NCBI RefSeq assembly: GCF_009914755.1
Contig: NC_060933.1
Source of the DNA: the human T2T-CHM13v2.0 reference genome, Homo sapiens
DNA: 64,000 nt
Direction: 5' to 3' (one strand)
The notes beneath the pieces were generated by a model, which saw only the letters and a list, made by a program, of their open reading frames with translations, ran no database searches and was not told the origin of the DNA. Shown here piece by piece: positions 29,301-42,100 of the stretch; position 1 is the stretch's first letter; each line of letters opens with the position of its first letter. The position numbers were made by a program, and so were the translations under genes.

Positions 29301-32300
29301 TGGAATCAACCCGAGTGCAATCGAATGGAATCGAATGGAATGGAATGCAATGGAATGGATTCAACTTGAATGGAATGGAAAGAATGGAATCAACACGAGT
29401 GGAATGACATGGATTGTAATGGAATGGAATGGAATCAACCCGAGTACAGGGGAATGGAATGGAATGGAATGCAATGAAATGGAATCATCCGTAATGGAAT
29501 GGAAAGGAATGGAATGGAATGGAATGGAATGGAATGGAATGGAATCAACTCGATTGCAATCGAATGGAATGGAATGGAATTAACCCGAATAGAATGGAAT
29601 GGAATGGAATGGAACGGAAGGGAATGGAATGGAATGGAACGGAATGGAACGGAAAGGAAGGGAATGGAATGGAATAGAATGGAATGGAATGGAATCAACG
29701 CGAGTGCAGGGGAATGGAATGGAATGGAATGCAATGGAATGGAATCTTCCGGAATGGAATGGAATGGAATGGAATGGAATGGAATGGAATGGAATCAACC
29801 CGAGTGCAATGGAATGGAGTGGAATGGAATGGAATGGAATGGAACAACCCGAATGGAATGGAAAGTAATGGAGAGTAAGGGAGTTGAATAGAATCAATCC
29901 GAATGTAATGGAATGGAATGGAACGGAATGGAATTGAATGGAATGGAATGGAATGCAATGGTATGGAATCAACCCGAGTGCAATGGAATGGAGAGGAATG
30001 GAATGGAATGGAATGGATACTACCCGAATGGAATGGAATGTAATGGAGTGTAAGGGAATTGAATAGAATCAATCCGAATGTAATGGAATGGAATGGAACG
30101 GAATGGAATGGAATGGAATCAACGCGAGTGCAGGGGAATGGAATGGAATGGAATGCAATGGAATGGAATCATCCGTAATGGAATGGAAAGGAATGGAATG
30201 GAATGGAATGGAATGGAATGGAATGGAATGGAATCAACTCGATTGCAATCGAATGGAATGGAATGGAATTAACCCGAATAGAATGGAATGGAATGGAATG
30301 GAACGGAACGGAATGGAATGGAATGGAATGGAATGGAACGGAATGGAATGGAATGGAATGGAATCAACGCGAGTGCAGGGGAATGGAATGGAATGGAATG
30401 TAATGGAATGGAAACTTCCGGAATGGAATGGAATGGAATGGAATGGAATGATATGCAATGGATTCTACTCGATTGCAATGGAATGGAATAGAATGGAATG
30501 AAATGGAATGGAATGCAATTAATCCGAATAGAATGGAATGGAATGGAATGGAATGGAACGGAATGGAACGGAATGGAATGGAATGGAATGGAATGGAATG
30601 GTATGGAATGGAATGGAATGGTACGGAATAGAATGGAATGGAACGAATTGTAATGGAATGGAATTGAATGGAATGGAATGGAATGGAATGGAATGGAATG
30701 GAATCAACGCGAGTGCAGGGGAATGTAATGGAACGGAATGCAATGGAATGGAATCATCCGGAATGGAATGGAATGGAATGGAATGGAATTGAATGGAATC
30801 AACCCGAGTGCAATGGAATGGAGTGGAATGGAATGGAATGGAATGGAACAACCCGAATGGAATGGAATGTAATGGAGAGTAAGGGAGTTGAATAGAATCA
30901 ATCCGAATGTAATGGAATGGAATGCAACGGAATGGAATGGAATGGAATAGAATGGAATGCAATGGAATGGAATCAACCCGAGTACAATGGAATGGAATGG
31001 AATGGAATGGAATGGAATGGAATGGAATGGAATGGAATGATACGGAATAGAATGGAATGGAACGAAATGGAATGGAATGGAAAGGAATGGAATGGAATGG
31101 AATGGAATCGTTCCGAGTGGAATAGGAGGGAAAGTATTCGAGTGGAATGGAAAGGAATGGAATCAACCAGAGTGGAATGGAAGGGAATGGAATGGAATGG
31201 AAACTAATAGAATGGAATCAACCCGAGTGGAATGGAATGGAAAGGACTGGAATGGAATGGAATGGAATGGAATCAACACGATTGTAATGGAATGGAATGG
31301 AATGGAATGGAATGGAATGGAATGGAATTAACCCGAATACAATGGAATGGAATGGAATGGAACGGAATGGAGTGGAATTTAATGGAATCAACCCAAGTGC
31401 AGGGGAATGGAATGGAATGGAATGCAATGGAATGGAATCATCCGGAATGGAATGGAATGGAATGGAATACAAAGCAATGGAATCAACTCGATTGCAATGG
31501 AATGGAATGGAATGGAAAGGAATACATTGGAATCAACCCGAGTGGAATGGAATGGAAAGGACTGGAATGGAGTGGAATGGAATGGAATGGAATCAACTCG
31601 ATTGGAATGGAATGGAATGGAATGGAATGGAATGGAATGGAATGGAATGGAATTAACCCGAATAGAATGGAATGGAATTAAATGGAAAGGAACGGAATGG
31701 AATGGAATGGAATGGAATGGAATGGAATCAACCCGACTGCAGGGGAATGGAATGGAATGGAATGCAATGGAATGGACTCAACTTGAATGGAATGGAAAGA
31801 ATGGAATCAACAAGAGTGGAATGGCATGGATTGCAATGGAATGGAATGGAATCAACCCGAGTACAGGGGAATGGAATGGAATGGAATGCAATGGAATGCA
31901 ATCATCCGTAATGGAATGGAAAGGAATGGGATGGAATGGAATGGAATGGAATAGAATGGAAAGGAATCAACTCGATTTCAATGGAATGGAATGGAATGGA
32001 ATTAACCCGAATAGAATGGAATGGAATGGAATGGAACGGAATGGAACGGAATGGAATGGAATGGAATGGAATGGAATGGAACGGAACGGAACGGAACGGA
32101 ATGGAATGGAATGGAATGGAATGGAATGGAATCAACGCGAGTGCAGGGGAATGGAATGTAATGGAATGCAATGGAATGGAATCTTCCGGAATGGAATGGA
32201 ATGGAATGGAATCAACCCGAGTGCAATGGAATGGAGTGGAATGGAATGGAATGGAATGGAACAACCCGAATGGAATGGAATGTAATGGAGAGTAAGGGAG

Positions 32301-39180: not shown

Positions 39181-42100
39181 CCTGCAGTCGGGTTGATTCC
39201 ATTCCATTCAATTCCATTCCATTCCATTCCATTCCATTCCGTTCCGTTCCGTTCCATTCCATTCCATTCCATTCCATTCTATTCGGGTTAATTCCATTCC
39301 ATTCCATTCCATTCCATTCCATTCCATTCCAATCGAGTTGATTCCATTCCATTTCATTCCATTCCATTCCACTCCATTCCTTTCCATTCCAATCCATTCC
39401 ATTGTATTCGGGTTAATTCCATTCCATTCCATTCCATTCCATCACAATCGAGTTGGTTCCATTCCATTCCATACCATTCCATTCCATTCCATTCCATTCC
39501 ATTCCGGATGATTCCATTCCATTACATTCTCTTCCATTATATTCCCCTGCACTCGGGTTGATTCCATTCCATTCCATTCCATTCGATTCCATTCCATTCC
39601 AATTCTTTCCATTCCATTCTATTCCGTACCATTCCATTCCATTCCATACCATTCCATTCCATTCCATTCCATTCCATTCCATTCCATTCCGTTCCGTTCC
39701 GTTCCATTCCATTCCACTCCATTTTATTCGGGTTAATTGCATTCCATTCCATTCGATTCCATTCCATTCTATTCCATTCCATTGCAATCGAGTTGAATCC
39801 ATTGCATTCCATTCCATTCCATTCCGGAAGATTCCATTCCATTGCATTCCATTCCATTCCATTCCCCTGCACTCGCTTTGATTCCATTCCATTCCATTCC
39901 ATTCCGTTCCGTTCCGTTCCGTTCCGTTCCGTTCCATTCCATTCCATTCTATTCGGTTTAATTCCATTCCATTCCATTGGATTGCAATCGAGTTGATTCC
40001 ATTCCATTCCATTCCATTCCATTCCATTCCATTCCATTCCTTTCCATTCCATTACGGATGATTCCATTCCACTGCATTACATTCCATTCCATTCCCTTGT
40101 ACTCGGGTTGATTCCATTCCATTCCATTCCATTCCATTCTATTCCATTCCATTCCATTCCGGAAGATTCCATTCCATTGCATTCCCCTGCACTCACGTTG
40201 ATTCCATTCCATTCCATTCCATTCCATTCCATTCCATTCCGTTCCGTTCCGTTCCGTTCCATTCCATTCCATTCCATTCTATTCGGGTTAATTCCATTCC
40301 ATTCTATTCGATTGCCATCGAGTTGATTCCATTCCATTCCATTCCATTCCATTCCATTCCATTCCATTCCATTCCTTTCCATTCCATTACGGATCACTCC
40401 ATTCCGTTGCATTCCATTCCATTCCATTCCCCTGTACTCGGGTTGATTCCATTCCATTCCATTCCACTCCATTCGGTTCCGTTGCATTCCATTCTATTGC
40501 ATTCCATTCTATTCGGGTTAATTCCATTCCATTCTATTCCATTCCATTCCATTGCATTCCATTGCAATGGAGTTGATTCCATTCCATTCCATTCCATTCC
40601 GGATGATTCCATTCCATTGCATTCCATTCCATTCCATTCCCCTGCACTCGTGTTGATTCCATTCCCTTCCATTCCATTCCATTCCATTCCATTCTATTCC
40701 GATTAATTCCATTCCATTCCATTCCATTCCATTCCATTCCATTGCAATCGAGTTGATTCCATTCCATTCCTTTCCATTCCATTCCATTGCCTTGCATTAC
40801 ACTCGGGTAGATTCCATTCCCTTCTTTCCACTCCATTACATTCCCTTCCATTCCACTCGGAATGATTGATTCCATTCCATTCCATTCCATTTCATTCCAT
40901 TGCAATCCATTCCAATCCATTCCATTCCATTCCATTCCACTCGAGATGACTTCATTCCATTCCTTTCTATTCCATTCCATTCCATTCCTTTCCACTCGAG
41001 TTGATTCCATTCCATTCCAATCCATTGCATTCCATTCCATGCCATTCCACTCGGGTTGATTCCATTCCTTTGCATTCCATTCCATTCCATTCCATTGCAT
41101 TCCATTCCATTCCAATCCGTTGCATTCCATTCCATTACATTCGGATTGATTCTATTGAACTCCCTTACTCTCCATTACATTCCATTCCATTCGGGTTGTT
41201 CCATTCCATTCCATTCCATTCCACTCCATTCCATTGCACTCGGGTTGATTCCATTCCATTCCATTCCATTCCATGCCATTCCGGATGATTCCATTCCATT
41301 GCATTCCGTTCCATTACATTCCCCTGCACTCGGGTTGATACCATTCCATTCCATTCCATTCCATTCCGGATGATTCCATTCCATTGCATTCCATTCCATT
41401 CCATTCCCATGCACTCGGGTTGATTACATTCCATTTCCTTCCCTTCCATTCCTTTCCATTCCATTCCATTCCATTCTATTCGGGTGTATTCCATTCCATT
41501 CCATTCCATTCCACTCCATTCCATTCCATTCCATTCTATTCCATTCCATTGGAATCGAGTTGATTCCATTCTATTCCATTCCATTCCGTTCCAGATGATT
41601 CCATTCCATTCCATTCCATTCCATTCCATTCCATTCCATTCCATTCCCCTGCACTCGGGTTGATTCCATTCCATTCCATTCCATTCCATTCCATTCCATT
41701 CCGTTCCGTTCCATTCCATTCCACTCCATTCTATTCGGGTTAATTCCATTCCATTCCATTCCATTCCATTCCATTCCAATCGAGTTGATTCCATTCCATT
41801 CCATTCCATTCCATTCCATTCCACTCCATTTCAGTGCTTTCCTTTCCATTACACTCGGGTTGATTCCATTCTATTCCTTTAAACTCCTTTCCATTCCATT
41901 GCAATCGAGTTAACTCCATTGCTTTGCATTCCATTCCATTCCATTCCATTCCATTCCGGATGATTCCTTTCCATTGCATTCCATTCCATTCCATTCCCCT
42001 GCACTCGGGTTGATTCCATTCCATTCCACTCCATTCCGTTCCATTCCATTCCATTCCATTTTATTCGGGTTAATTCCATTCCATTCCATTCCATTCCATT

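What the first reader, a model, noticed from the sequence alone, without database searches (positions are those of the whole stretch)
30000..40000. Convergent G-rich strands could yield fold-back dsRNA under stress
Seen: GGAAT is on + left of the junction and on - right of it, with HSEs on both sides and no intervening non-satellite DNA. Established: stress-induced SatIII RNA is mainly the G-rich strand, made by Pol II. Inference: transcription converges on the junction, and read-through would give one RNA with GGAAU and AUUCC tracts able to pair over kilobases. This could account for C-rich SatIII RNA and provide ADAR, Dicer or PKR substrates. The junction could also be a collision or cruciform site. 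Untested.
Basis: inference. Interest (0 to 1): 0.7.

Follow-up and report, generated by a model that had tools for sequence, protein, structure and literature searches.

The report
Copied flip point in chr9 satellite
This is a real point where the heat-shock satellite on human chromosome 9 flips direction, one of about 200 known flips and one of 48 near-identical copies that likely descend from a single old rearrangement; an RNA crossing it is predicted to fold back on itself, but published measurements suggest such RNA is likely very rare.

Summary
The switch is real: GGAAT on + ends at 35,153, ATTCC begins at 35,166, with no foreign DNA between. It is one of the >200 published inversion breakpoints of the chr9 HSat3B5 array. 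The junction has 48 copies, all on chr9, with shared flanks (median 96-99% identity), and overlaps two ordinary monomers by a 5-bp microhomology. Five junction motifs account for 188 of the 195 switch sites I mapped, so the flips are mostly copies of a few old breakpoints. The arms are not mirror images, and pairing next to the junction is weaker than 59 of 60 random G-by-C pairs. A crossing RNA would still be ~80% paired, with helices up to 37 bp. HSE motifs lie on both sides but belong to the repeat unit. Verdict: a known, likely passively copied breakpoint that most transcripts likely do not cross, or cross without surviving. Useful by-product: five short junction motifs allow an alignment-free read-through test.

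The parts
1..35158 (+). Left arm: HSat3 with GGAAT on +. Begins outside the window at a divergent junction (chr9:63,292,723), block length 44.4 kb
35164..64000 (-). Right arm: HSat3 with GGAAT on -. Ends outside the window at a divergent junction (chr9:63,393,823), block length 56.7 kb
35149..35170 (.). Convergent junction 22-mer GGAATCATCCCGAGTTGATTCC (chr9:63,337,149-63,337,170), variant of the 48-copy family whose usual form has A at 35,156
35159..35163 (.). 5-bp microhomology CGAGT shared by the two donor monomers (unbroken left donor continues GGAATGCAAGG, unbroken right donor is preceded by CCATTGCAAT)
   Evidence: 5 unbroken left-donor and 9 unbroken right-donor copies in the window
35146..35173 (.). 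Short perfect inverted repeat at the junction: 10-bp arms, 8-nt spacer (12-bp arms and 4-nt loop in 42 of 48 copies)
34772..34784 (+). Nearest three-unit HSE consensus on the left; others at 30,411 and 32,179
37840..37852 (-). Nearest three-unit HSE consensus on the right; others at 38,449, 38,728 and 39,822
37791..37796 (-). [quoted passage not shown] On the left arm the nearest are ATTAAA at 31,677 and AATAAA at 23,182

Best explanation
This is one of 48 near-identical copies of a strand-switch junction in the chr9 HSat3B5 array, likely formed once by microhomology-mediated joining of two ordinary monomers in opposite orientation and likely spread passively by duplication of array segments, and most stress-induced transcripts likely end or are destroyed at or soon after such junctions, so little fold-back RNA would accumulate. 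Shown: the switch, the 5-bp overlap, 48 copies with shared flanks in both orientations, a recent duplicate of the whole two-arm unit 8.83 Mb away, no mirror symmetry, no above-average pairing. Inferred: single origin; the joining pathway (MMEJ or template switch); that G-rich transcription runs toward the junction from both sides. Inferred from published RNA levels: that read-through RNA is scarce. The most likely reason is that G-strand bias follows the local polarity of the repeat (elongation, processing or stability favour purine-rich GGAAU RNA), so a polymerase that enters C-rich sequence or meets an oncoming polymerase stops, or its RNA is turned over. That last step is untested.
For: All 48 pattern matches are on chr9 and all 48 are convergent switches with the same flanks. 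Median flank identity to the window copy is 0.96-0.99 against 0.85-0.89 for random segments; 32-47 of 47 copies score above the best of 47 background segments in each of six distance bins; 26 distinct haplotypes over +-150 bp. The donors occur unbroken in the window and overlap in exactly CGAGT. The copy at chr9:54,509,824 is identical over 4,900 bp left and differs by one 5-bp indel over 4,878 bp right; both far ends match over 6,000 of 6,000 bp; junction order repeats at an 8.72-8.83 Mb offset over 31 sites, fitting the published multi-megabase tandem duplication (10.1101/2021.05.26.445798). 195 mapped sites, 174 of 194 neighbours alternate (permutation mean 97, max 121 of 2,000), at least 215 switches implied, matching 'over 200 inversion breakpoints' (10.1101/2021.07.12.452052). 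Free read-through predicts 0.85%, 2.1%, 4.2%, 8.5% C-rich nucleotides for 2, 5, 10, 20 kb transcripts. PMC2241877 reports G-rich up 10^4-fold and C-rich in stressed cells below G-rich in unstressed cells. PMC2171959 reports very large transcripts, antisense signal down twofold, no antisense Northern band and no small RNAs; its primer for the antisense strand matches both arms (27 sites at up to 2 mismatches).
Against: C-rich RNA rises in parallel with G-rich RNA, about 10-fold with heat and 200-fold with cadmium, as a small read-through fraction would. RT-PCR and hybridisation can under-count C-rich tracts that are already paired to G-rich RNA, and the PMC2241877 primers may see only a subset of repeats (the authors' own caveat; primer table not readable). 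No AATAAA or ATTAAA lies between the HSEs at 32,179 or 34,772 and the junction, and the C-rich strand has 0 AATAAA, so the sequence offers no obvious stop signal. The second-best collinear block between the arms (2.1 kb; 7,552-9,674 with 60,320-62,488) is centred within about 160 bp of the junction, although that anti-diagonal as a whole is not enriched. The RNA data are from HeLa, whose junction set is unknown. The termination or decay step has no direct evidence.
Confidence: 0.7

Rival explanations
1. Rare read-through across convergent junctions is the main source of the trace C-rich SatIII RNA and yields nuclear fold-back dsRNA that ADAR or other dsRNA proteins act on.
For: Crossing RNA is predicted to be about 80% paired with helices of 30 bp or more; 80% of the first 5 kb of the right arm has a perfect complement of 33 bp or more in the last 5 kb of the left arm. 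43 of 48 copies have an HSE within 1.45 kb on the same flank. At least 108 convergent sites exist. C-rich RNA tracks G-rich RNA. HSAT2,3 RNA is J2-precipitable in Ewing sarcoma medium (PMC11060741).
Against: C-rich level implied below 1e-4 of G-rich; antisense falls after heat shock, no antisense band, no small RNAs. Any C-rich RNA would pair in trans with the large G-rich excess, so dsRNA needs no junction; random G-by-C pairs are stronger than the junction pair in 50 of 60 and 59 of 60 trials. SatIII RNA stays at its nuclear site of transcription, away from the mainly cytoplasmic PKR and Dicer (my knowledge).
Confidence: 0.22
2. The junction is a structure-prone hotspot (hairpin or cruciform at the quasi-palindromic CAACCCGAGTTG motif, or a collision site) that forms or breaks repeatedly.
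For: 42 of 48 copies carry 12-bp perfect arms around a 4-nt loop; the motif is quasi-palindromic in every monomer that carries it. A pangenome preprint finds many pericentromeric inversion boundaries at palindromic repeats (10.64898/2026.09.03.749043).
Against: All 48 copies share the same two flanks, although the window alone has 196 plus 80 monomers with the donor motifs; recurrent formation would give varied flanks. This copy has lost 2 bp of each arm. The arms are far shorter than those of known cruciform breakage sites (my knowledge).
Confidence: 0.06
3. The switch is an assembly artefact (mis-join or chimeric read).
For: The array was among the hardest parts of CHM13 to assemble, and graph nodes were shared between the two traversals of the duplication, which may inflate the identity of the 8.83-Mb duplicate.
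Against: 48 copies in 26 distinct flank haplotypes; orderly alternation; about 129 orientation switches per haplotype in independent pangenome assemblies.
Confidence: 0.02

Closest known systems
HSat3B5 chr9 inversion breakpoints (Altemose et al., 10.1101/2021.07.12.452052, passages read; pangenome preprint 10.64898/2026.09.03.749043, passages read)
   Same: Same array, same feature: a strand switch inside the satellite. My minimum count of 215 fits the published 'over 200'; about 129 per haplotype in the population.
   Different: The passages I read give counts only. They do not describe junction sequences, microhomology, or that five motifs cover most switches; tables and supplements were not seen.
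CHM13 9qh+ multi-megabase tandem HSat3 duplication (Nurk et al., 10.1101/2021.05.26.445798, passages read)
   Same: The junction and both arms recur at an offset of about 8.8 Mb.
   Different: The duplication explains only one of the 47 other copies of this junction; the rest come from older copying.
Stress-induced G-rich SatIII RNA of nuclear stress bodies (PMC2171959, PMC2241877, review PMC10505914)
   Same: Same repeat; the pHuR98 primer matches both arms; HSE-like motifs present.
   Different: Those papers treat the array as having one transcribed strand; here the G-rich strand alternates between the two DNA strands about every 80 kb (median).
DUX4-induced HSATII dsRNA foci (Shadle et al., 10.1101/734541, passages read)
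   Same: Pericentric satellite RNA in which a minor complementary strand limits dsRNA formation, with ADAR1 recruited and PKR phosphorylation affected.
   Different: HSATII, not HSat3; proposed to be intermolecular from bidirectional transcription, not a fold-back across an inversion; shown by experiment, whereas nothing is shown here.
Fold-back inversion / DNA palindrome (my knowledge)
   Same: Head-to-head arms with a short central hairpin.
   Different: Arms are different monomers of one family and are not mirror copies.

Membership tests
Human satellite 3 (chr9 HSat3B5 array) | Diverged (GGAAT)n with CAACCCGAGT-type interruptions | tested here: met
   about 110 pentamers per kb; 196 GGAATCAACCCG motifs
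Human satellite 3 (chr9 HSat3B5 array) | Location in the 9q12 array and match to the chr9 clone pHuR98 | tested here: met
   G000:C9:63,302,001-63,366,000, inside the hsat3_9_3(B5) interval shown in PMC11622622; pHuR98 primer matches 27 sites
Human satellite 3 (chr9 HSat3B5 array) | Subfamily-specific 24-mers of B5 | not tested
   no k-mer table on hand
HSat3B5 inversion breakpoint | Switch of satellite polarity within the array | tested here: met
HSat3B5 inversion breakpoint | Listed in the published breakpoint table | not testable with these tools
   preprint supplements closed; journal version not held
Microhomology-mediated junction (MMEJ / template switch) | Short exact overlap of the two donor sequences, no inserted bases | tested here: met
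   exactly 5 bp, CGAGT; the repair pathway itself cannot be read from sequence
Fold-back inversion / palindrome | Arms are mirror copies about the junction | tested here: not met
   match density on the junction anti-diagonals 0.083-0.099 vs mean 0.077, sd 0.033 over 120 anti-diagonals
Cruciform-forming inverted repeat | Perfect arms with a very short spacer, long enough to extrude | tested here: inconclusive
   10 bp / 8 nt here; 12 bp / 4 nt in 42 of 48 copies; extrusion not testable
dsRNA-forming satellite transcript (HSATII-type) | Complementary tracts giving helices of about 30 bp or more | tested here: met
   predicted only: 37 and 34 bp on +, 36 bp on - in 1.2-kb folds; none in 400-nt folds
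dsRNA-forming satellite transcript (HSATII-type) | Both strands expressed, dsRNA detected (J2/K1, RNase III, editing) | not testable with these tools
   no RNA data; published C-rich SatIII is very low
Canonical heat shock element | Three or more alternating nGAAn units | tested here: met
   43 three-unit matches, 0 four-unit
Canonical heat shock element | HSF1 occupancy at these sites | not testable with these tools
   HSF1 ChIP is enriched in motif-dense HSat3 sub-regions in general (PMC11526998); not resolved to this locus

The most novel reading that the evidence does not exclude
The 100-plus convergent junctions of the chr9 array, nearly all copies of three ancestral breakpoints, are where heat-shock transcription ends: G-rich transcripts run into them from both sides, and those that cross become fold-back dsRNA that is edited or destroyed and hidden from strand-specific assays. 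This would set SatIII RNA length and strand purity, supply the trace C-rich RNA, and make junction number, which varies between people, a dial for nuclear dsRNA under stress.
Probability: 0.12. Interest if true: 0.75.

Novelty: already known. Interest (0 to 1): 0.3.

Why it matters
The switch itself is catalogued. Two by-products have value. (1) The 200-odd chr9 HSat3 flips are mostly copies: five motifs cover 188 of 195 mapped sites, so they trace how the array grew and do not signal ongoing inversion. I did not find this in 10 literature searches, but the journal paper, its supplements and a review of these satellites were not readable and may state it. (2) The array is half G-on-plus and half G-on-minus, yet its RNA is almost purely G-rich. 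That sharpens an old question, what sets SatIII strand choice and where the transcripts end, and the five chr9-specific motifs make it testable in existing stranded data without mapping.

Tried and rejected
BLAST of arm against arm timed out; replaced by exact-match chaining. A k-mer peak near 34,975 suggested a mirror palindrome; rejected after normalising by anti-diagonal length. The fold z-score of -19.8 against dinucleotide shuffles was set aside as uninformative, because any G-rich by C-rich satellite pair beats such shuffles; random-arm duplexes are the proper control. No single higher-order period: distance peaks differ between arms. The 22 vs 0 AATAAA strand asymmetry follows from base composition and was not counted as a signal. 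Donor tracing for the other four junction families was ambiguous except a tentative 5-bp overlap in family E; the same script failed to retrieve donors for this family, whose donors come. Rfam: nothing. Left out of the 195-site list: the chr9 site at 48,706,329 and the chr7, chr14 and chr17 sites; one search listed only 100 of 628 matches and served only to find motifs. Papers not held. PMC2241877 supplement not searchable. Hoyt et al. passages and 10.64898/2026.07.27.740875 gave nothing on strand switches.
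Full report
Observation. The window is pure HSat3 with one polarity switch. GGAAT is on + up to 35,153 and ATTCC from 35,166; counts are 3,968 vs 3 on the left and 5 vs 3,287 on the right. No pentamer-free gap over 50 bp exists in 30-40 kb, and Rfam finds nothing there. Three-unit HSE consensus motifs number 21 left and 22 right; all are one monomer variant, none has four units; seven lie in the flagged interval.

What the junction is. The 22-mer at 35,149-35,170 occurs twice in the genome. A degenerate form occurs 48 times, all on chr9 between 51.07 and 75.68 Mb, in both orientations. 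I fetched the other 47: all 48 are convergent switches with the same flanks. Median identity to the window copy is 0.96-0.99 out to 1.4 kb, against 0.85-0.89 for random window segments, and there are 26 distinct haplotypes over +-150 bp. Both flanks also occur unbroken in the window, 5 and 9 times, and overlap in exactly five bases, CGAGT. I infer one ancestral microhomology-mediated join that was later copied. The copy at 54,509,824 is identical over 4,900 bp left and has one 5-bp indel in 4,878 bp right; the far ends of both arms match over 6,000 of 6,000 bp; junction order repeats at an offset of 8.72-8.83 Mb over 31 sites. This fits the recent multi-megabase tandem duplication described for CHM13 chr9 (10.1101/2021.05.26.445798, passages); shared graph nodes may inflate that identity.

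Context in the array. Further searches gave two more convergent motifs (29 and 20 sites) and two divergent motifs (80 and 11 sites), all on chr9, plus 7 rarer convergent sites taken (one more chr9 site and the sites on other chromosomes were left out). I confirmed a switch directly at 48 of 48 A, 1 of 29 B, 1 of 20 C, 5 of 80 D, 2 of 11 E and 5 of 7 rare sites. The rest are supported by alternation: 174 of 194 neighbours alternate, against a permutation mean of 97 and maximum of 121 in 2,000. The 20 non-alternating pairs imply at least 215 switches; median alternating block 80 kb. Published: over 200 inversion breakpoints for this array and beta-satellite arrays (10.1101/2021.07.12.452052, passages) and about 129 switches per haplotype (10.64898/2026.09.03.749043, passages). 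The arms of our junction are 44.4 and 56.7 kb, with no further switch in the adjoining stretches fetched.

Pairing potential. The arms are not mirror copies: match density along the junction anti-diagonals is 0.083-0.099 against 0.077 +- 0.033 over 120. One 2.1-kb collinear block 25 kb out is centred near the junction, but blocks as good lie on other anti-diagonals. The longest perfect complement is 238 bp, 144 bp within 5 kb of the junction; 80% of the first 5 kb on the right has a perfect complement of 33 bp or more in the last 5 kb on the left. Junction-spanning RNAs of 0.4-1.2 kb are predicted 77-82% paired, with longest helices 24-37 bp, against 22-32% and 4-9 bp for G-only RNA. The junction-adjacent duplex is weaker than random G-by-C pairs from the window in 50 of 60 (150 nt) and 59 of 60 (300 nt) trials. 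So fold-back is a generic consequence of satellite complementarity and shows no sign of being tuned. The DNA hairpin is 10 bp with an 8-nt spacer here, 12 bp with a 4-nt loop in 42 of 48 copies.

Is it transcribed through? I had no RNA data. G-on-plus and G-on-minus blocks are balanced (87 each; 9.82 and 9.74 Mb), and heat-shock reads map along the whole array (PMC11622622, passages; multi-mapping limits this). Since the RNA is almost all G-rich (PMC2241877, passages and one discussion section; PMC2171959, passages; review PMC10505914, passages), direction likely follows local polarity and converges here. A simple model with uniform starts and free read-through gives 0.85-8.5% C-rich nucleotides for 2-20 kb transcripts. 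PMC2241877 reports a 10^4-fold G-rich induction and C-rich RNA in stressed cells below G-rich RNA in unstressed cells, which I read as a ratio under about 1e-4. PMC2171959 reports very large transcripts, antisense down twofold, no antisense band and no small RNAs; its primer matches both arms (27 sites). Free read-through with stable product is therefore unlikely. On the other side, C-rich RNA rises in step with G-rich RNA, paired C-rich tracts can escape priming or probing, no poly(A) hexamer lies between the last two left HSEs and the junction, 43 of 48 copies have an HSE within 1.45 kb on that flank, and the data are from HeLa. Rare read-through could thus supply the trace C-rich RNA. Even then any C-rich RNA would pair in trans with the G-rich excess, as proposed for DUX4-induced HSATII dsRNA (10.1101/734541, passages); HSAT2,3 dsRNA has also been pulled down from tumour-cell medium (PMC11060741, passages).

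Verdict. Best reading (0.70): a known, passively copied inversion breakpoint that most transcripts do not cross or do not survive crossing; the stopping or decay step is inferred. Rival (0.22): rare read-through is the main source of C-rich RNA and of some nuclear dsRNA. Hotspot or cruciform (0.06) and artefact (0.02) are poorly supported. Ten searches returned no paper whose listing addresses transcription across these junctions or their grouping into a few families; the journal version, its supplements and a review of these satellites were not readable and may cover the grouping. PMC13705371 (passages) and PMC11526998 (passages) added only that G-rich probes remain standard and that HSF1 binds motif-dense sub-regions. 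Interest 0.3: an ordinary feature, with a cheap test of a real open question attached.

Noticed in passing
chr9 HSat3 array, 51.07-76.57 Mb: Five junction motifs (48, 29 and 20 convergent; 80 and 11 divergent) cover 188 of 195 mapped strand switches; each motif is found only on chr9 and in both orientations.
   Followed up: partly
L054:1325-1345 (chr9:70,855,025) and 19 other sites: The third convergent family has AATAAA exactly at the switch in 20 of 20 matches, in one direction only. It could be chance, or a natural comparison for termination at junctions.
   Followed up: no
L054:191-1330 and 9734: A G-on-plus block of only 1.1 kb between a divergent and a convergent junction, the shortest of 174 blocks; 8 blocks are under 10 kb. 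These are the likeliest places for one RNA to hold both strands.
   Followed up: no
chr9:52.3-54.6 Mb vs 61.1-63.4 Mb; second offset peak near 10.6 Mb: Junction order maps the tandem duplication; the offset drifts from 8.72 to 8.83 Mb, and this window's right arm is 15.2 kb shorter than its duplicate (56,674 vs 71,868 bp), showing large indels since the duplication.
   Followed up: partly
L060:7822 (family E divergent junction): Tentative 5-bp overlap (ACGGA) between donor monomers, again at a CG-containing interruption of the pentamer run.
   Followed up: partly
G000:C7:58.7-59.04 Mb, C2:89.36 and 90.39 Mb, C14:4.70 Mb, C17:21.96 Mb: GGAAT/ATTCC polarity-switch patterns also match on other chromosomes, with different junction sequences.
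   Followed up: no
whole window: CpG observed/expected is 0.94 and 0.99 by single-strand counts, with no depletion; strand skew affects this ratio.
   Followed up: no
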